This document shows positions 15,001-48,000 of a stretch of DNA of 48,368 nt, piece after piece; within the stretch, counting starts at the first letter, position 1, and every line of letters begins with the position of its first letter. This stretch comes from an uncultured Methanosarcinales archaeon (GTDB lineage: Archaea > Nanobdellota > Nanobdellia > Woesearchaeales > CAYSVS01), in NCBI GenBank assembly GCA_964589485.1, contig CAZPRK010000001.1, forward strand, positions 1-48,368. The letters are read 5' to 3'. A program made the position numbers.

Positions 15001-18000
15001 ACAATAATAAACTTAAAGATCTTACAGTTCTCCCATGACTTAAATCTCCTCCAAATCCAATCTTAAGTCCATCTAAAACGCCATTATTATAAGAATATAA
15101 AGTAAAAATATCTAACAAAGATTGAGTTGGATGTTCATTCTTCCCATCTCCTCCATTAATTACAGGAATTTTTGCAACATCTGCTGCCCACTGAACACTT
15201 CCATCTATTGGATTTCTCATTACTATAACATCAAAATGATTTGCTTCCATCATTTTCACTGTATCCATTATAGATTCATTTTTTTTTACAGAAGTTCCAT
15301 CAACTCCAGAAAAACCATCTCTTTTCCCACCTAACTGGCTCATTGCCGTATCGAAACTTAATTTAGTTCTTGTACTAGGTTCATAAAACATATAAGCCAT
15401 TTTTTTATTTTTCAAAGAAGAACTCAACCCATATCTGTTATTTGATTTTTCAAGTTGTTTCATTTCATTTGCTTTATTACACAAATATAAAATTTGTTCA
15501 GAATTTAAATCTGAAATTGAAATTATATCTTTTTTTTCAAACAACTTTATGCACCTAAATTTTTCAATTCTTGATCAGGACTTGGATTAATGTCAACTTC
15601 TTGTACATTAAACTCAACTCTATCAAACATAACATTTCTTTTTACTCTTCCCTTTAAACCAACAATTAACCCTAAAACTTCATTTTTTAAAGTTTCAAAT
15701 TCATTCAAATTATCTTTATAAAATAAAAGTTCAGTTGAATTTTTTGATAATAACTTTTCTGCTAATTCACCAAAAAAAACACAACGTATAGTTTCAGTTC
15801 CATCATCTAAAACTGAATTTAACACAGATGAAAAAATAGGCGTAATTTCTCCATGTTCATCACAAACATATCGTTGAGATTCTTGTGCCCGAGTTCTTCT
15901 TCTACAATTAGGACAAACTTCAAAAAATCTAGGTTCAAATAATTGAACTAAAGTTCCTAATATTTCTACATTAAACTCTTCATCTTTAATTTCATTAATT
16001 TTTTTTCTCTTTGATTCATTCTTAATTTCTTCAACTGTTTCCCCTTCAGGGTTTACCATTATTTCAGAATTATCATTAATATGAATTTCTTTTCTACCTA
16101 CATTATCTTTAATATATCCATCTTTTACTAATAAAATGTCTCCTTCATTAAAAGTATCTAATTTTTTAACATAATCATTCCAAAATACAAGACGTGTAAA
16201 TCCAGATTCATCTGAAGCAAAAACATTTGCAACTTTTCCTTGCCTATCATTTTTATTAAATTCTCTAGGTTCAAATTTTTTAGTTACTCGTAAAACTACT
16301 TCAAAATGTTTCATTCCAGGAACCATATTAGTTACTTTAATCCTTGAACCTTGCTCAATTACAACTTTAACTCCTAATTCATTTGCAATAATATGACATG
16401 CTCCTTGCTCAGAAACAAGCCCAGATAATTGTTCAATTTTTTTCTCAATCTTAGAATTTAACTCTTCCTCGGTGATGTGTGCTTCTTTTATTATTTTTTG
16501 CTTCATATCTAAAATTAACATAAAAACCCCCAATAAAAGATTAAAATTCGATTTTAAATAGTTTGCTATACTTTAGTATCTAATATTCTAGAATACTCTT
16601 CAATATTAGAAGGTTTTTCTTCATTTCCTTGAAGATATACACCATAACAATCAGCTTCAGGAACATTAAAGTTCTTACTTTCAGAAGTTGCCATATTTCC
16701 TAAAATAAGAGGTTTCTTATCAAACATACTATCACATTCACCATAATAAAGATTAACTTTTAATTCTGTTTCTTTAATACTGCTAGAATCTACATTCCTA
16801 GTAGGTGAAATTACAGTTAACCCACCATATATATAAGTTATTAAAGGTTTTTCTGGGGACAAATCATCTATTGATTTAACTTTAACATAATCATTATTAC
16901 TATTTTCGGAAATAACTTTTACATAATAATCAATATTATCTTCAACTTCTAATTCAAATTTACTTTTTTCTAATTTAACTATTGTAGGTTCAATATCTAA
17001 ATTTTTAGTATAATGTAAATAATAATCTAAATCATCATAATCAAAAGTAACTTCAAGTGAATTTTCTGCATTTATTTTATCTTCAACTTTAAAACCAACT
17101 TTTTGTAAATTACTTAATTCTAATGCAAATTTATATTCATTACTTAATAAATCAGTTGAACAAAACTTATACACATTCCCTTTATTTTCATACTTCCCTT
17201 TACAATCCCAATATAATGCATTTTTTTTCACACAATTTAATTTATTCTTTGCTTTTCCACATTCATCTAAAATGATAATTGATCTTTTTTTAATATTATC
17301 TAAATATTTAATAAAATCAAAAACTTTAATTTTAACATTAGGTTTTACTTCATATACACCTGAAATTTCACGTTGAGTTGTTTTTTTATCTAACTCAATA
17401 GTTGCTTCTCCTGTAATTTTATTTCCTTGAAAACTAGTCATTATTCTTCTATGTAATTTAATCAATTTATTAGAATATTCGGAATCAGTAGCGTATCCTC
17501 CTTTATGAATTTCAATAAACATCCTTTCAGATGAATCTAAATAATTCATTGCCCCAGAATATCTTTTAAAAGAACTGATTAAGGTAGCATAATCATAAAT
17601 AGACTCACAATAATTATTATAAGCTCTAAATTTTGCTTTCACTAAACAATCATCCTTTCCAAAAGAACATTTATATTTTTTCTGATTACAATCAATTATA
17701 AAATCTTTATTTTTTTCTTGTTGACTTGAAGAATAACATTCATGGGTTTCTCTCAAACTACAACCATTTGTTCCTTCTTTTTTTGAAGTACATTTATATC
17801 CAAACAAATTATAAGCAAAAGTTTCATCAAATTTAGATTGTTTAGTTGCTAATTGACTTCTACCCCATCCACTTTCATGTATAGCTTGTGTTAATGCAAC
17901 ATCCCACGGAACTTTAGTTTCCTTTTGAACATCCAATAAACAACCACCAATTCCAACCAAAGGACTGTTTTCTGATTTTAAAAATCTATCAATTGCATTA

Positions 18001-45000: not shown

Positions 45001-48000
45001 TTTTTCAAAAAAGGTTCTTGATCAGGTAAAGAAAATTCAAAAGGATAATTTAATTTAACTAAAACATCATCTTCACCATACAATACGTCTACGGAAGGTT
45101 TACCTTTTTCTACAAGTTCATAATTAAATTTAGTTCTAATTACATCTAAATCTAAACATTTTTTTGATCTATTTGCAATATAAAAACTCAACAATTCTTG
45201 TAAAGTAAAATCATCAAGTATACCCCCATACGAAGAAACATCACATGTTGAAACTAAACTAGAACTAGGATTATTTGGACCTTTTTTATCACAAATCCTA
45301 GGAAATTCTCTATCACCTAAATTATTTACGTCATCAATTTTAGCATTCGGTGTATAATACCCATAGTCATTATCTGTTTCAAGTTCATTATAAATCCCAT
45401 AATTTACTTTTTGTCCATCAACCACCATAAATTTAGTTTCAGCTATTTTTTCAATAACATCTTCATCATCAGAAGAATCTTCATACAAAATTCCACCTTG
45501 TTCTGCAGCTCTAACTAAAGCTTCATTGGTTGCTTCCTCTAAACAAGAACTAATGTAATATTCCAATGCAGTAGTTTGTAACAAATCAGTTGTTAACAAA
45601 TTAACTTGTTGTTTAATTTGTTGTTCTGTTGTTATTTGCGCAAATATGAATATCCCTCCAAATACAGAAACTACTACTACACCTAATAAAATAAAAGCCG
45701 TAATTTGCGCTCTTTTCAATTTTAAACCTCTTTAATTAAAAAATAGAAAGTATATTATTTAAAATTAATGATTCTAAGAACATTTAACCCAAGAACCTAA
45801 AACTGATTCAGAAGATAATAAACTTGTTTTTAATAATTCACTTGCTATTGAATTTTGGTTAATATTTTTCCAACCTTTTCCTTGATCTCCGTTTGGTAAA
45901 GTTCTATCATTTGAATCAACTGCTGAAAAATCAAAAACATAAATCTTATCAACATTATTTTTACAAACATTTCTGTTATAAGTTTGTAAATTTTGATCTA
46001 AAATTGCACCTAAACTTACTAAATTCCATCCACGTTTCAAGTTACTAACTCTATATTCGTTTACAGCCGGCATTTCAATTTCACAATCTCGAGTTGATTT
46101 AATCCAAAACCCTTTACCTCTAGGTATTCCATTTGTAAAATGATTTAAAAATTTAGAATTATCTTTTCCATTTGTATAACTATACCAAATATTATCATAC
46201 ACCCATAATTTATAATCTCCACAATTATTAAATTTAGAAATTAAAATATTTTCATTAGCTCCTAATAAAGCCCAACTTTTAGGTAAAGTAAATTTAATAT
46301 CTTCAACACAAGCTCCATCGATACATTTCCCATTACATTTTGACCATTGTGTTTGTGCACTTCCACTTGTACAAGTTCCTTCCCTTAAATAAAATCCTGC
46401 ATCGTTTTCATAACATAAATCATCTAAATAAGCTTCTTTAAATTGATCTTGTAAATAATAACTATAACTTACTCTTCCTTTAGTTTGTCTTGATGTTCCA
46501 TCAGTATCTACACAAGATCTACTACTACTAGGAGTACAACCTTCATCTACTATTGTATCTCCACATTGATTATTTTTTCCATCACATAACTCAGGAGCAC
46601 CTGGATATACTGAACTTCCATCAAAAGGGTTATCATCACAATCATTAGTTCCTTTTGAACATATTGCTGGACTTCCTACTATAATTGCATTATCTGAACA
46701 ATATCCGTCATTATCAGCATCACAACCTTCATCAACTAACCCTTGCCCAGATCCAGAACATTGATTATCTACATCATCACAAATTTCAGGAGCACCGGGG
46801 TATACTTTGTTATTATTATCATTACAATCATCTCCGCAAGGAGAAGCTTCATGTCCATCTCCNNNNNNNNNNNNNNNNNNNNNNNNNNNNNNNNNNNNNN
46901 NNNNNNNNNNNNNNNNNNNNNNNNNNNNNNNNNNNNNNNNNNNNNNNNNNNNNNNNNNNNNNTACTACATTGATTATCTATCCCATCACATAACTCAGGA
47001 GCTCCAGGATAAACTTTAGAATTATCATCATTACAATCAACTTTATCTCCGCAATTTTTGAAAAAACCATCTTTATCTGAATCCACACAAGGTTCTTTAT
47101 CACTTAAAATTACTGAAAAATCGAAATTAGAATTTTGATATCCAAAAATTTGAATTTGCAAAGAACTTAAGCCACCCTGAAATAATCCATTAGAAGTTTG
47201 AGCTCCATAATGTTCTAATTTAAGCTTCATTACATTACCTGCACAACTAATTAGTGTAGGTTTTCCAACATTATATGAAGCAGTTAAAGAATTAAGTGGA
47301 CTAGGACTTGTACCTAAACTAACTTCACAATTTATTAATTGTTTTGGAAAAGTAATTTCAACAGTTGTAGAAAGCACAGTATTAGTAAATTTTGCATAAG
47401 ACTTACCTTTAACATCTAAACAAGTTTCATCACTACAAATTATAGAACTAACTGTAGTTTCACCAGATCCATCCTTACTTGTTATTTCTCGTTGCAATTG
47501 AAATTCTTTAACAGATTTCATATCAACAGTAAAAGCACCTACAAAACTACTTAAAAGAGTTATTAACAACAACGACATAATTACTTTCTTCATCCGCATA
47601 ACACCCAAGTTCCTAAATGTGAATTTATATTTGAATTCATATTAGATTCTTTTCCTAAATTAATTTTACTCCATCTAGTTTTACCAAACTTTTCTTGTGA
47701 AGCAATAACATCTATATTATTTTTATTATCATATATCCAAGCTTTTAATTGTTTATTTCTACATACTTTTTTATTTACTGTAATCAAATCTTCATCTAAC
47801 AATGAACCAAAATTAATCAAGTTCCAACCATTAGGTAAATTGTTTGCTTGATAATCTTTATTTAATGGAATATTAATTTGACAACTTTCTTTAGATAACA
47901 CCCAAAAACCTCTTCCTTTTGGTATTTTAAGACCAAACTTTTGAATATACTTGTTATTATCAGCAGCACTAAAAGAGTACCATTGTCCATCAAATAATTG

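What a model noticed while it worked through the whole genome (the two positions that open the first line are those of the whole stretch)
16566..45719. Seventeen-gene type IV pilin-like operon headed by a pilin-signal peptidoglycan hydrolase and giant adhesins
C1:16566-45719 (minus strand) is one run of 18 genes (g00013-g00030). Seventeen of them start with an archaeal class III (prepilin) signal: M-x(0-3)-K/R-K/R-G/A followed by a ~20-residue hydrophobic helix. Besides small (78-392 aa) pilin-like proteins, the run includes proteins of 1221, 4269 and 1029 aa. At the downstream end it has a 658-aa GH73 N-acetylglucosaminidase (FlgJ type) with intact ESGWG and YATD motifs. This predicts a type IV filament carrying a bacterial cell-wall hydrolase and giant adhesins as pilin-anchored subunits, a plausible device for attaching to or attacking a bacterial host.
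Evidence so far: N-termini are printed in call 106. A FlaFind-like regex with a hydrophobicity filter finds 33 of 1227 proteins, 16 of them in the run g00014-g00030 (only g00020, 40 aa, is excepted). g00013 (MNKKG|GMTLIIVV...) misses the regex by one residue. Of the small proteins only g00018 (TSP_3, E 0.002) and g00022 (Inhibitor_I68, E 5.5e-6) have any Pfam hit at E <= 0.01. g00013 has Pfam Glucosaminidase and matches FlgJ structures 5DN4/5DN5/2ZYC by phmmer at E 1e-12 to 8e-9, with the catalytic Glu motif aligned. It has only 1 other homologue cluster of similar length. Peptidase_A24 genes are g00036 (17 kb upstream) and g00548; the T2SSE ATPase g00386 is on C3. PLoS Genet 2026 (PMC13705601, passages read [...]
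(Added by a program. Inside this text positions count along the whole contig: contig position 1 is position 1 of the stretch shown here. "Call 12" and the like, gene names such as g00115 and contig names such as C1 are that model's own, and its searches are not shown. The text may have been shortened before it was handed on; [...] marks where a part breaks off. The agent that wrote the report below was given it as the finding of a first reader that could run no searches.)

Follow-up and report, generated by a model that had tools for sequence, protein, structure and literature searches.

The report
Archaeal pilin-like array with murein hydrolase
A tiny marine DPANN archaeon carries a conserved block of pilus-subunit-like surface genes that ends in an enzyme for cutting bacterial cell walls, and its relatives fit other wall-cutting enzymes into the same slot, which points to physical contact with, or attack on, bacteria.

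Summary
The run is real: 19 tightly packed minus-strand ORFs at 16566-45719. Sixteen begin with an archaeal class III (prepilin-like) motif.

The GH73 domain is intact, but it is not a FlgJ orthologue.

The whole block is syntenic in relatives from many families of the order. Its last gene is a conserved class III N-terminus plus a ~150-aa scaffold, found in 253 of 301 order genomes. In 77 of 105 relatives' copies this scaffold carries a peptidoglycan-acting domain: SLT, M23, M15/VanY, NlpC/P60, Amidase_2, 3D or YkuD. GH73 is a rare head (0 of 105).

The genome has no transpeptidase or FtsW/RodA. It has two A24 peptidases and one T2SSE ATPase beside a putative platform protein.

Best reading (0.55): a type IV filament-like surface apparatus that presents an interchangeable murein hydrolase to bacterial cell walls. 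Cleavage and filament formation are inferred, not shown.

This scan found the same theme before on other Woesearchaeota-type and Aenigmatarchaeota DNA. Published work reports Woesearchaeal murein hydrolases and DPANN pilin islands separately. I found no paper that links them.

The parts
42630..45719 (-). g1029: first gene of the block, a 1029-aa protein with a class III-like N-terminus (MKRA|QITAFILLGVVVVSVFGGIFIFAQ)
   Evidence: Orthologues sit directly upstream of the giant in G001, G009, G007, G058 and G017; the G009 copy reads RKAQITLFIVLGIVVVIAF. There is a weak paralogue on C15. No Pfam family.
29734..42543 (-). g4269: 4269-aa secreted giant with a Sec-type signal peptide and a Cys-rich start; adhesin-like
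   Evidence: CarboxypepD_reg x3 at E 4.8e-28; acidic double-disulfide repeats. Fails the strict class III filter. Five orthologues have Sec-type N-termini.
26064..29747 (-). g1227: 1227-aa surface protein with a Sec-type signal, Ig-like and thrombospondin-3-like repeats, a C-terminal TM helix (1043-1061) and a Lys-rich tail
   Evidence: The family N-termini are Sec-type; 3 of 16 have K/R-G/A-S before the h-region. Syntenic in relatives.
25585..26067 (-). g160: pilin-like protein (MKKG|QQAQIFGIIVSIFLVSGIMLFGY)
   Evidence: Has orthologues in 10 of 25 relatives' loci. A paralogue on C3:69245-69757 lies directly upstream of a 2900-aa Sec giant.
24618..25628 (-). g336: pilin-like protein (..SRG|QVGIQFNWMFVLIAGG..); the start codon is uncertain
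   Evidence: family motif KKG-x-I-E-LQFNWIF; 15 orthologues in 15 loci.
24136..24636 (-). g166: pilin-like protein (MKKG|QLQIAENIGILVVFF..)
   Evidence: AF2 model: pLDDT 86.4, one helix over residues 2-57 followed by a four-stranded sheet. Conserved PE..C...C.D motif. No Pfam family in 13 members.
23651..24139 (-). g162: pilin-like protein (MKKA|QMEILGLAIVVLLL..) with a conserved Glu at +3
   Evidence: 16 orthologues.
23326..23601 (-). g91: short pilin-like protein and candidate major subunit (MYKKA|QGISLNVIIIAAIGLVVLVLLVAIFTG + Cys-rich head)
   Evidence: The most conserved gene of the block, 69% identical to the G001 copy. Present in 1-3 copies per locus. Family alignment A7.
23072..23308 (-). 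g78: short paralogue of g91 with a six-Cys beta-defensin-like head
   Evidence: Pfam Inhibitor_I68 at 27.1 bits against a cut-off of 25. The profile hits a tick carboxypeptidase inhibitor, crotamine and big defensin at E 0.04-1.
22920..23030 (-). g36: conserved 36-aa mini-ORF with a class III-like start (MFKRG|QMSWIQIIIYLAIFAFVLWII)
   Evidence: ORFs of like form lie at the same place in G001 (47 aa) and G002 (42 aa).
21745..22923 (-). g392: pilin-like protein with a Cys-rich middle and a conserved C-terminal Gly/Ala-rich hydrophobic segment (~residues 300-370)
   Evidence: The segment recurs in most of 29 family members listed.
21611..21733 (-). g40: 40-aa hydrophobic mini-protein without a K/R-G/A motif
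   Evidence: Small ORFs lie at the same place in relatives.
20949..21611 (-). g220: pilin-like protein (MSKKG|FSEVVGW..)
20695..20952 (-). g85: pilin-like protein (MKKG|LAFEFLVKAILVIAIAV..) with a TSP_3-like Asp-rich motif
   Evidence: 53-58% identity to the same-genus copies.
20180..20698 (-). g172: pilin-like protein (MKKG|MATKALVSLIMGV..)
19401..20183 (-). g260: pilin-like protein (MKKG|SIDLSMQELLLLVLGVVVGW..)
   Evidence: Part of the block g260-g148-g150-g661, found consecutively in 20 of 25 relatives' loci.
18980..19426 (-). g148: pilin-like protein (MMLNKKG|ITTTWFTITNLIR-ITFIGLIIVVFF..); atypical, with an Arg before the hydrophobic core
   Evidence: found in 25 of 25 loci.
18535..18987 (-). 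g150: pilin-like protein (MNKKA|ITYDIVEIVVSVILLMILLF..)
16566..18551 (-). g661: last gene of the block. Class III-like N-terminus, conserved scaffold (residues ~36-172), GH73 head, then two FnIII-like domains
   Evidence: AF2 model: pLDDT 72.7, scaffold ~90. Foldseek finds FnIII pairs and FlgJ 5dn5/5dn4. The scaffold family is in 253 of 301 order genomes. The same-genus copies lack the GH73 segment.
17442..17933 (-). GH73 (Glucosaminidase) catalytic domain inside g661, with HESGWG, NLFGYK, a Cys-rich insert holding ETHEC, FRAY and GGYATD
   Evidence: The same subtype is in P0002 (61% identity in this segment, 44% over 535 aligned positions) and in G220.
15547..16533 (-). RPA-like single-strand DNA-binding gene. 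It is the conserved downstream neighbour that marks the end of the block and is not part of the system
   Evidence: An RPA-like gene is directly downstream in 28 of 62 relatives' loci where a downstream ORF was called, and in G001, G002, G003 and G019.

Best explanation
The window holds the version in this genome of a gene block conserved in Woesearchaeota-type DPANN archaea.

Gene order: a large class III-signal protein; two Sec-secreted adhesin-like giants; about fourteen small proteins with prepilin-type N-termini; and last, a class III-signal 'scaffold' protein whose head is a peptidoglycan hydrolase, here GH73.

Proposed mechanism:
1. The K/R-K/R-G/A|Q-type leaders are cut by the genome's two A24 class III signal peptidases.
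2. The processed hydrophobic helices are assembled by the single FlaI/T2SSE-type ATPase and its neighbouring polytopic platform protein, which are encoded on another contig. The product is a short filament or pseudopilus-like surface structure.
3. The short, duplicated g91/g78 proteins are the bulk subunits. The other pilin-like proteins form a minor-subunit or tip complex.
4. The terminal scaffold protein presents a murein-cutting head to the wall of a bacterium that the giants hold close. The wall is opened locally for attachment, feeding or killing.

Shown: the motifs and their conservation; the synteny; the interchangeable wall-enzyme slot; an intact GH73 motif set; absence of transpeptidase and FtsW/RodA; presence of the peptidases and the ATPase.

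Inferred: cleavage; filament assembly; subunit roles; enzymatic activity; a bacterial target.
For: 1. Motif. Sixteen of 19 ORFs begin with K/R-K/R-G/A plus a ~20-residue hydrophobic stretch. Across 25 relatives' loci, the 89 sites scored have A 48 / G 35 / S 6 at -1, K 71 / R 18 at -2, and Q in 36 at +1. Several families keep an acidic residue at +2 to +6. The Sec-type giants in the same block lack the motif.

2. Synteny. The order g1029-giant-g1227-g160-g336-g166-g162-g91/78-g392-g40-g220-g85-g172-g260-g148-g150-g661 recurs in same-genus and other-family genomes. The block g260-g148-g150-g661 is consecutive in 20 of 25 loci.

3. Hydrolase slot. The scaffold is in 253 of 301 order genomes. Of 105 relatives' scaffold proteins, 77 carry a peptidoglycan-acting Pfam domain at E<=1e-3: 16 of 25 and 61 of 80 (one of the 61 has Peptidase_C39_2 alone). 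In the 80: SLT 27, M23 23, M15/VanY 7, NlpC/P60 4, Amidase_2 2, C39_2 2, 3D 1, YkuD 1, VgrG3_C 1. Seven next genes add SLT, VanY, GH3, a deacetylase and others. Head types are almost as scattered on the scaffold tree as shuffled labels: 36 changes among 78 labelled rows, shuffles 40.9 +/- 2.1.

4. GH73. Pfam E 2.4e-24; the catalytic-Glu motif and YATD align to FlgJ structures.

5. No own murein. No Transpeptidase or FtsW/RodA match in a 99.9% complete genome.

6. Machinery. Two A24 peptidases. One T2SSE ATPase lies next to a 748-aa, 8-TM protein whose nearest ESM Atlas cluster (0.98) is named GspF-domain. T2SSE is in 301 of 301 order genomes.

7. Fold. The g166 model is one 56-residue N-terminal helix plus a four-stranded sheet, pLDDT 86.4.

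8. Complex prediction: WEAK support. The soluble parts of g148, g150 and the g661 scaffold score 0.49, best control 0.03. The mark was reached by 116 of 157 solved complexes and 2 of 215 mismatches. At 0.60 or under, only 18 of those 157 and both mismatches passed. The runs agree in at least 66% of contacts, and the partner's pLDDT is at least 51.

9. Literature. [quoted passage not shown]
Against: - There is no evidence of cleavage or of a filament. The N-termini could be uncleaved signal anchors.
- No pilin family model matches. PF04021 Class_IIIsignal finds nothing in the genome at E<=10. Pfam and NCBIfam find no pilin family in the small proteins.
- In the g661 model the N-terminal helix is broken at residues 27-38 and is not one long pilin helix.
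- PF00482 (T2SSF) has no match in the genome at E<=1e-3.
- The ATPase, platform and peptidases are not in the block. None was found in six relatives' extended loci.
- 28 of 105 scaffold proteins, including both same-genus copies, have no detectable wall enzyme.
- No peptidoglycan-binding domain was detected in g661.
- The second catalytic acid of GH73 lies in a low-confidence, Cys-rich insert.
- The scaffold tree is weak, with 48 of 103 inner branches unresolved, so the number of head swaps is an upper bound.
Confidence: 0.55

Rival explanations
1. Membrane-tethered surface complex, not a filament. The K/R-K/R-G/A plus hydrophobic N-termini act as uncleaved signal anchors, or as cleaved but non-polymerising anchors as in the Sulfolobus bindosome. 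The proteins form a fixed envelope layer. The hydrolase, held at the cell surface, digests wall fragments of nearby or dead bacteria for amino sugars and peptides.
For: - No pilin family or fold match.
- The helix of the g661 model is broken after the TM segment.
- The machinery genes are unlinked.
- Published work describes class III-signal proteins that functionalise a T4F machinery for substrate binding rather than forming classical pili (PMC13705601, abstract).
- g166 has a weak NCBIfam hit to bindosome BasB, E 0.0099.
Against: - Strict conservation of a small residue at -1, basic residues at -2 and -3, and Q at +1 would not be needed for a plain anchor.
- The short, duplicated g91/g78 proteins look like bulk subunits.
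- The g166 model has a long helix followed by a sheet.
- The BasB hit is 15.8 bits against a cut-off of 230.
Confidence: 0.25
2. Type II secretion-like pseudopilus. The pilin-like proteins form a short piston that pushes the co-encoded Sec-exported giants and the hydrolase through the S-layer. The hydrolase is then released as a soluble antibacterial enzyme.
For: - The pairing 'class III protein directly upstream of a giant Sec protein' recurs on C15, C22 and C3 as well as here.
- One candidate major subunit family plus many distinct minor pilin-like proteins resembles the make-up of pseudopilin sets.
Against: - The hydrolase itself carries the class III-type N-terminus and the conserved scaffold, so it looks like a subunit rather than cargo.
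- The 1227-aa giant has its own C-terminal membrane anchor.
- No archaeal T2SS-like secretion has been established (recalled, not searched).
Confidence: 0.1
3. Self-directed wall remodelling. The hydrolases open the archaeon's own envelope for the passage of a surface structure, as FlgJ, VirB1 or EtgA do in bacteria.
For: FlgJ-like logic of a scaffold domain fused to GH73. One Mur_ligase_M match exists in the genome.
Against: - No transpeptidase or FtsW/RodA in a 99.9% complete genome.
- The Mur_ligase_M search also matches archaeal control genomes.
- The heads cover seven or more unrelated murein-specific chemistries.
- Published surveys conclude that most archaeal PGHs do not act on the producer's own wall (PMC12352652, passages).
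Confidence: 0.03

Closest known systems
Archaeal type IV filament 'system 1' / Epd pili of Methanococcus maripaludis (PMC13705601, sections 7 and 11 read)
   Same: Many distinct pilin-like genes in one co-transcribed block. K/R-G/A|Q leaders with an acidic residue a few positions later. A short major pilin without a large globular domain. Dedicated A24 peptidase(s). The paper assigns system 1-type pilins to 1990 Nanobdellati genomes and notes that their pilins are scattered away from the ATPase and platform genes.
   Different: No match to the Class_IIIsignal/DUF361 model. No ATPase, platform or peptidase in the block. About 16 pilin-like genes plus giants. A murein hydrolase as a subunit-like member, which the paper does not mention ('hydrolase' 0 occurrences).
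[quoted passage not shown] 2021, PMC8204110; Vigneron et al. 2022, PMC9723730; passages read)
   Same: The same archaeal group; bacterial-type wall hydrolases; the same inference of attachment to, or attack on, bacteria. The 51-family 'module 98' specific to these lineages may include this block.
   Different: Those papers describe one SLT/GH23 family and do not mention pili or pilins (0 occurrences). Here the enzyme sits on a conserved class III-signal scaffold at the end of a pilin-like array, the head is interchangeable, and in this genome it is GH73.
Archaeal modular peptidoglycan hydrolases (Woldo/Danwoldo; Strock et al. 2025, PMC12352652, passages read)
   Same: Archaeal enzymes with bacterial PGH catalytic domains (M23; PF01832 glucosaminidase in Danwoldo). 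Catalytic domains were replaced repeatedly. The paper calls such enzymes prominent in Nanoarchaeota.
   Different: Those are soluble Tat- or Sec-secreted proteins defined by a peptidoglycan-binding domain. g661 has no detected binding domain. It has a class III-type N-terminus and lies in a pilin-like operon. The paper does not consider class III signals ('pilin' and 'class III' 0 occurrences).
FlgJ of beta/gamma-proteobacteria (PDB 5DN4, 5DN5, 2ZYC)
   Same: A GH73 muramidase with ESGWG and YATD motifs, fused to an N-terminal domain that docks it onto a growing filamentous machine.
   Different: Not an orthologue: the FlgJ equivalog models score far below their cut-offs. The N-terminal domain is unrelated. 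There is a long Cys-rich insert in the beta-hairpin region. The substrate cannot be the producer's own wall.
Bacterial minor-pilin/PilY1 tip complexes, T2SS pseudopilins, and the type IV pili of episymbiotic Saccharibacteria (PMC9894109, PMC11623550; search listings only)
   Same: One major plus many minor pilin-like subunits; large adhesins linked to the pilus; ultrasmall episymbionts that use pili to engage a bacterial host.
   Different: Different domain of life. No sequence relation found. No hydrolase-bearing pilin is known to me in those systems (recalled).

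Membership tests
Archaeal type IV filament (T4F) system | Subunits with class III signal peptides (short basic leader, G/A/S at -1, ~20 hydrophobic residues) | tested here: met
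   By sequence pattern and its conservation only: 16 of 19 ORFs; position statistics over 25 relatives' loci. Cleavage was not tested.
Archaeal type IV filament (T4F) system | Class III signal peptidase (Peptidase_A24) in the genome | tested here: met
   Two genes over the Pfam cut-off: C4, 57.4 bits, with a weak Arc_PepC_II match; C1, 28.7 bits.
Archaeal type IV filament (T4F) system | FlaI/PilB-type secretion ATPase | tested here: met
   One T2SSE match, C3:26641-28926, 57.2 bits. T2SSE is present in 301 of 301 order genomes.
Archaeal type IV filament (T4F) system | Platform protein (FlaJ/TadC/GspF family) | tested here: inconclusive
   PF00482 has no match at E<=1e-3. The 748-aa, 8-TM neighbour of the ATPase has no Pfam family. 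Its nearest ESM Atlas cluster, score 0.98, is named GspF-domain.
Archaeal type IV filament (T4F) system | Pilin fold (long N-terminal helix packed on a beta-sheet) and polymerisation | tested here: inconclusive
   The g166 model has a helix at 2-57 plus four strands. Fold searches found no pilin above generic helix matches. Polymerisation cannot be tested with these tools.
Epd / DUF361 (Pfam PF04021 Class_IIIsignal) pilins | Match to the Class_IIIsignal model (QxSxE-type N-terminus) | tested here: not met
   No match in the whole genome at E<=10.
GH73 N-acetylglucosaminidase (Pfam PF01832) | Domain match over the curated cut-off | tested here: met
   86.8 bits against a cut-off of 30.2, residues 207-370.
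GH73 N-acetylglucosaminidase (Pfam PF01832) | Catalytic Glu in the E-S/T-G-W-G motif and the YATD motif | tested here: met
   HESGWG and GGYATD align with FlgJ LESGWG and AGYATD. Conserved in P0002 and G220.
GH73 N-acetylglucosaminidase (Pfam PF01832) | Second acidic residue on the beta-hairpin; hydrolytic activity | tested here: inconclusive
   A conserved ET(H/T)EC lies in the unaligned, low-pLDDT insert. Its equivalence to the FlgJ residue is recalled, not shown. Activity cannot be tested here.
FlgJ (flagellar rod-cap muramidase) | Full-length equivalog match including the N-terminal rod-binding domain | tested here: not met
   TIGR02541 scores 72.6 bits against a cut-off of 193. Only the C-terminal GH73 part aligns.
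Modular archaeal PGH sensu Strock et al. 2025 | A peptidoglycan-binding domain (LysM, PG_binding_1, SH3 and the like) joined to the catalytic domain | tested here: not met
   Pfam finds only Glucosaminidase in g661 at E<=0.01. The C-terminal part models as FnIII-like domains.
Sulfolobales bindosome (BasABC) | Match to a Bas protein model over its cut-off | tested here: not met
   g166 against BasB: 15.8 bits, cut-off 230.

The most novel reading that the evidence does not exclude
Woesearchaeota-type archaea, whose hosts are unknown, build a dedicated type IV filament whose tip complex is a cross-domain 'wall drill'. It would consist of a conserved scaffold subunit with a swappable murein hydrolase head, a subunit with a glycine-zipper-like membrane-inserting tail (g392), and a defensin-knobbed major pilin, held on target by co-encoded giant adhesins. 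The head swapping would track the wall chemistry of different bacterial hosts, as tail lysins do in phages. If so, most of this order lives on bacteria rather than on archaea.
Probability: 0.2. Interest if true: 0.9.

Novelty: new variant of a known kind. Interest (0 to 1): 0.66.

Why it matters
No member of the Woesearchaeota has a known host, and all cultivated DPANN archaea live on other archaea.

A near-universal surface gene block (scaffold family in 84% of 301 sampled order genomes) ends in a slot for enzymes that cut only bacterial murein. This is strong genomic evidence that the group engages bacteria physically.

It makes the question testable with named proteins:
- the leaders and the two A24 peptidases, for cleavage assays;
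- the heads, for sacculus assays that could reveal the host's wall type;
- g91/g78, as a label for filaments.

It would also be a first case of a hydrolase-bearing pilin-like subunit, and of phage-lysin-style head swapping on an archaeal surface organelle.

Tried and rejected
- Pilin family models. PF04021 has no match in the genome at E<=10. Pfam and NCBIfam find nothing pilin-like in the small proteins. Pfam on all 13 members of the g166 family gave only scattered chance hits.
- DUF7287 lead. ESM Atlas gave DUF7287 (0.91) as the nearest named cluster to g166. PF23958 has no match in the genome at E<=1, and no paper holds the name. Lead dropped.
- Profile searches against PDB sequences. g166 found nothing meaningful. 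g78/g91 found a bacterial PilA only at E 6.
- Linkage to the machinery. No A24 peptidase, ATPase or platform gene was found in six relatives' extended loci. The 17-kb distance to the A24 gene in this genome is therefore not a conserved linkage.
- Expression. No RNA holder was listed for 16566-26067. The holders are DNA runs labelled as marine or seawater metagenomes.
- Same-place look-up in earlier notes by sequence: nothing.
- Chance or regex artefact: rejected.
- Mobile element or virus: rejected, because the block sits at a conserved chromosomal place next to the RPA gene across families.

Full report
WHAT IS THERE

The window is contig C1:1-48368 of a 1.16-Mb, 23-contig genome that is 99.9% complete with about 28% G+C. 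Earlier notes of this scan call it a Woesearchaeota-type DPANN archaeon. The taxa of the nearest ESM Atlas clusters agree. I did not place it by marker genes.

From 45719 down to 16566 the minus strand carries 19 ORFs. They have many 1-17 bp overlaps and no gap larger than 86 bp, which is an operon-like layout. The sigma-70-type promoter and terminator scan found no more sites than shuffled sequence, and it is not suited to archaea.

THE N-TERMINI

Sixteen ORFs start with M-x(0-3)-K/R-K/R-G/A followed by about 20 hydrophobic residues. A strict filter needs K/R-G/A, then an 18-residue uncharged core of mean hydropathy 2.0 or more starting within 10 residues. It passes 30 of 1360 ORFs genome-wide and 14 of the 19 in the run (hypergeometric 2e-21). 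g148 and g85 miss it only because of interspersed charges. A looser filter gave 51 of 1360, 15 of them in the run.

The pattern is conserved in orthologues. Over 25 relatives' loci, the 89 sites that could be scored show:
- at -1: A 48, G 35, S 6;
- at -2: K 71, R 18;
- at +1: Q in 36.

Several families also keep an acidic residue a few positions in, for example g162 KKA|QME, g166 KKG|QLQIAE and g336 KKG|VIE.

The 1227-aa and 4269-aa proteins are different. They have 12-14 residue h-regions followed by small-residue cleavage motifs. Their orthologues do not keep K/R-G/A: 3 of 16 in the 1227-aa family do, and five giant orthologues have Sec-type ends followed by 'CC'. The 1227-aa protein also has a C-terminal TM helix and a Lys-rich tail. 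These two are ordinary Sec-exported surface proteins. The 1029-aa protein does have the class III-type start, as does its G009 orthologue.

THE BLOCK IS CONSERVED

tblastn of the window's proteins against regions fetched from two same-genus genomes and two genomes of other families gave the same genes in the same order, ending at an RPA-like gene. With 20 more loci and iterated family profiles, the order [giant]-g1227-g160-g336-g166-g162-g91/g78(x1-3)-g392-g40-g220-g85-g172-g260-g148-g150-g661 recurs. The sub-block g260-g148-g150-g661 is consecutive in 20 of 25 loci and partly present in the other 5. Many loci are cut by contig ends. Upstream, g1029-giant-g1227 is syntenic in G001, G009, G007, G058 and G017.

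THE LAST GENE IS A HYDROLASE SLOT

Searching 60 relatives with the GH73 protein gave matches in 32 of them. The matches covered only residues ~4-170 and 374-464. The two same-genus copies lack the GH73 segment altogether.

Pfam on the 25 class III-type family members from 24 genomes found a peptidoglycan-acting domain at the same position in 16 at E<=1e-3: M23 6, SLT 4, Amidase_2 3, NlpC/P60 1 (with a GDSL lipase), 3D 1, VanY/M15 1. Nine had none.

A profile of the N-terminal scaffold (A5) matches 253 of 301 sampled genomes of the order, and 187 of 222 high-quality ones. That tally includes seven genomes flagged unpublished, from which I fetched nothing.

I fetched the gene from 80 further genomes. 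Sixty-one of 80 carry such a domain: SLT 27, M23 23, M15/VanY 7, NlpC/P60 4, Amidase_2 2, Peptidase_C39_2 2 (one of them alone), 3D 1, YkuD 1, VgrG3-like_C 1. Some proteins carry two or three. Nineteen have none.

Together, 77 of 105 scaffold proteins carry a peptidoglycan-acting domain.

The next gene adds further wall enzymes in 7 of 62 loci. These include a 1477-aa M23+M15_4+NlpC/P60+GDSL protein and a GH3+NAGPA protein. Three of these loci had no head on the scaffold gene.

On a FastTree of the scaffold, head types need 36 changes among 78 labelled rows, against 40.9 +/- 2.1 for shuffled labels (14 of 500 shuffles at or below 36). With 'none' counted as a state, 50 changes against 61.7 +/- 2.7 (0 of 500). 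Heads are therefore replaced often. The tree is weak, so the count is an upper bound.

In a phylum-level sample the scaffold matches 161 of 201 genomes, all of the same order or the same class. The 33 same-class, other-order matches have short frames (about 150-300 aa in the places listed), so they probably have no head.

THE GH73 HEAD

GH73 is rare in this slot: 0 of the 105 census proteins have it. A directed search found PF01832 in 21 of 301 order genomes including this one. Of those ORFs, the ones in G220 (E 1.3e-15) and G066 (3.9e-5) sit on the same scaffold, and a G023 second-gene copy is weak.

The only close relative in the 5.8-billion-protein collection is P0002, a fragment named TARA in its metaclust record. 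It is 61% identical in the GH73 segment and 44% identical over 535 aligned positions, with the same architecture.

Window, P0002 and G220 share HESGWG, NLFG-x-K, a Cys-rich insert holding ET(H/T)EC, F-R/K-x-Y and GY-A/S-T. The first and last motifs align to FlgJ structures. The AF2 model (pLDDT 72.7) has:
- a TM helix at residues 3-26;
- a confident scaffold at 39-150;
- the GH73 domain, which matches FlgJ 5dn5/5dn4 at TM 0.51-0.53;
- two FnIII-like domains.

It is not a FlgJ orthologue and has no detected wall-binding domain.

THE TARGET IS NOT THE PRODUCER'S OWN WALL

The genome has no Transpeptidase and no FtsW/RodA match. It has one Mur_ligase_M hit, and that model also matches archaeal control genomes.

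THE MACHINERY

There are two A24 peptidases. There is one T2SSE ATPase. It sits next to a 748-aa, 8-TM protein without a Pfam family, whose nearest ESM Atlas cluster (0.98) is named GspF-domain. T2SSE is universal in the order (301 of 301), so it does not discriminate. No machinery gene lies in six relatives' extended loci. [quoted passage not shown]

FOLD AND BINDING TESTS

The g166 model (13-row alignment, pLDDT 86.4) is a 56-residue N-terminal helix followed by a four-stranded sheet. This is the general architecture of pilins, but the fold searches were uninformative.

The complex prediction used the soluble parts only of g148, g150 and the g661 scaffold. It gave WEAK support: 0.49 against a best control of 0.03. 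The mark was reached by 116 of 157 solved complexes and 2 of 215 mismatches. At 0.60 or under, only 18 of those 157 and both mismatches passed. The runs agree in at least 66% of contacts, and the partner's pLDDT is at least 51.

WHAT IS KNOWN

Published:
- DPANN dark-matter islands of 'diverse pilins' next to FlaI/TadC (PMC6393860, passages).
- A T4F census with scattered Nanobdellati pilins and class III-signal binding proteins (PMC13705601, abstract, sections 7 and 11, passages).
- Large murein lytic transglycosylase proteins in Woesearchaeota and Pacearchaeota, with the idea of bacterial hosts (PMC8204110 and PMC9723730, passages).
- Archaeal PGHs that kill bacteria, prominent in Nanoarchaeota, with only Sec and Tat signals considered (PMC12352652, passages).

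None of the passages I read links the hydrolases to class III signals or to a pilin-like array. Five full-text searches found no paper that does. Supplementary tables were not read.

This scan reached the same reading before on other genomes (e1-1253462, e1-1066150, e1-2625260, e1-3770804, e1-1122492 and, in Aenigmatarchaeota, e1-911277). I saw those notes only, and they agree with what I found.

VERDICT

The finding is a GH73-headed member of a conserved, apparently undescribed variant of archaeal type IV filament-like systems. Comparative evidence for a bacterial-wall target is strong. There is no direct evidence yet for cleavage, filament formation or activity.

Noticed in passing
window 21745-22923 (g392), about residues 300-370: A conserved C-terminal Gly/Ala/Thr-rich hydrophobic segment of 50-60 residues, glycine-zipper-like, is followed by a short Cys-containing end. 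It recurs in most of the 29 family members listed from relatives. It could be a second membrane-inserting element, possibly aimed at a target membrane.
   Followed up: partly
window 23072-23308 (g78) and 23326-23601 (g91): The heads of the candidate major subunits carry a six-Cys pattern (C-x6-C-x6-C-x8-C-x5-CC in g78) like beta-defensin-fold peptides. Pfam Inhibitor_I68 scores 27.1 bits against a cut-off of 25. The family profile hits a tick carboxypeptidase inhibitor, crotamine and big defensin at E 0.04-1. The head is acidic, not cationic.
   Followed up: partly
window 45774-47641: A run of N (read as X, about 46865-46965) splits what looks like one ~600-aa Sec-signal gene. It has MopE-type Cys repeats and a C-terminal domain 35% identical to the end of the neighbouring 4211-aa giant.
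   Followed up: partly
G000 contig C21:3-1373 (locus L071): A second GH73 gene in the genome has a different architecture: a Sec-like start, several TM helices, the GH73 domain (AWESGW, NNLFGIH) and a C-terminal TM anchor. It lies on a 9.8-kb contig.
   Followed up: no
G000 C15:8-5154, C22:45-7564, C3:60546-69757: The pairing 'class III-signal protein directly upstream of a giant Sec-signal protein' recurs three more times in the genome: 705 aa + 1010 aa, 622 aa + 1884 aa, and 170 aa + 2900 aa. The 170-aa protein is a paralogue of g160.
   Followed up: no
G000 C6:26337-28251: A separate small cluster of three class III-signal proteins (156, 209 and 201 aa) lies next to a 1750-aa Sec giant. None has a Pfam family.
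   Followed up: no
window 13127-15544: An 805-aa ORF fuses aspartate carbamoyltransferase catalytic (PyrB) and regulatory (PyrI) chains and continues for about 330 more residues without a Pfam match. The G002 copy found by tblastn covers residues 1-494 only.
   Followed up: no
window 15547-16533 and relatives' loci: An RPA-like ssDNA-binding gene is the conserved downstream neighbour of the pilin-like block: 28 of 62 directly downstream ORFs. It is an odd, stable juxtaposition of a replication gene and a surface-protein operon.
   Followed up: partly
relatives: L127:1631-6064, L136:3-5111, L134:1505-5449, L143:165-4607: Some relatives encode multi-enzyme giants at or just after the slot: Metallophos+GDSL+M15_4+M23+NlpC/P60 (1477 aa); Metallophos+GH3+NAGPA (1703+ aa); polysaccharide deacetylase+VanY+NAGPA (1314 aa); NlpC/P60+T6SS VgrG3-like C-terminal domain (1480 aa).
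   Followed up: no
whole genome G000 against the order: This genome has a single T2SSE-type ATPase match, whereas most relatives show 2-6. Whatever class III-signal structures it builds must share one motor.
   Followed up: no
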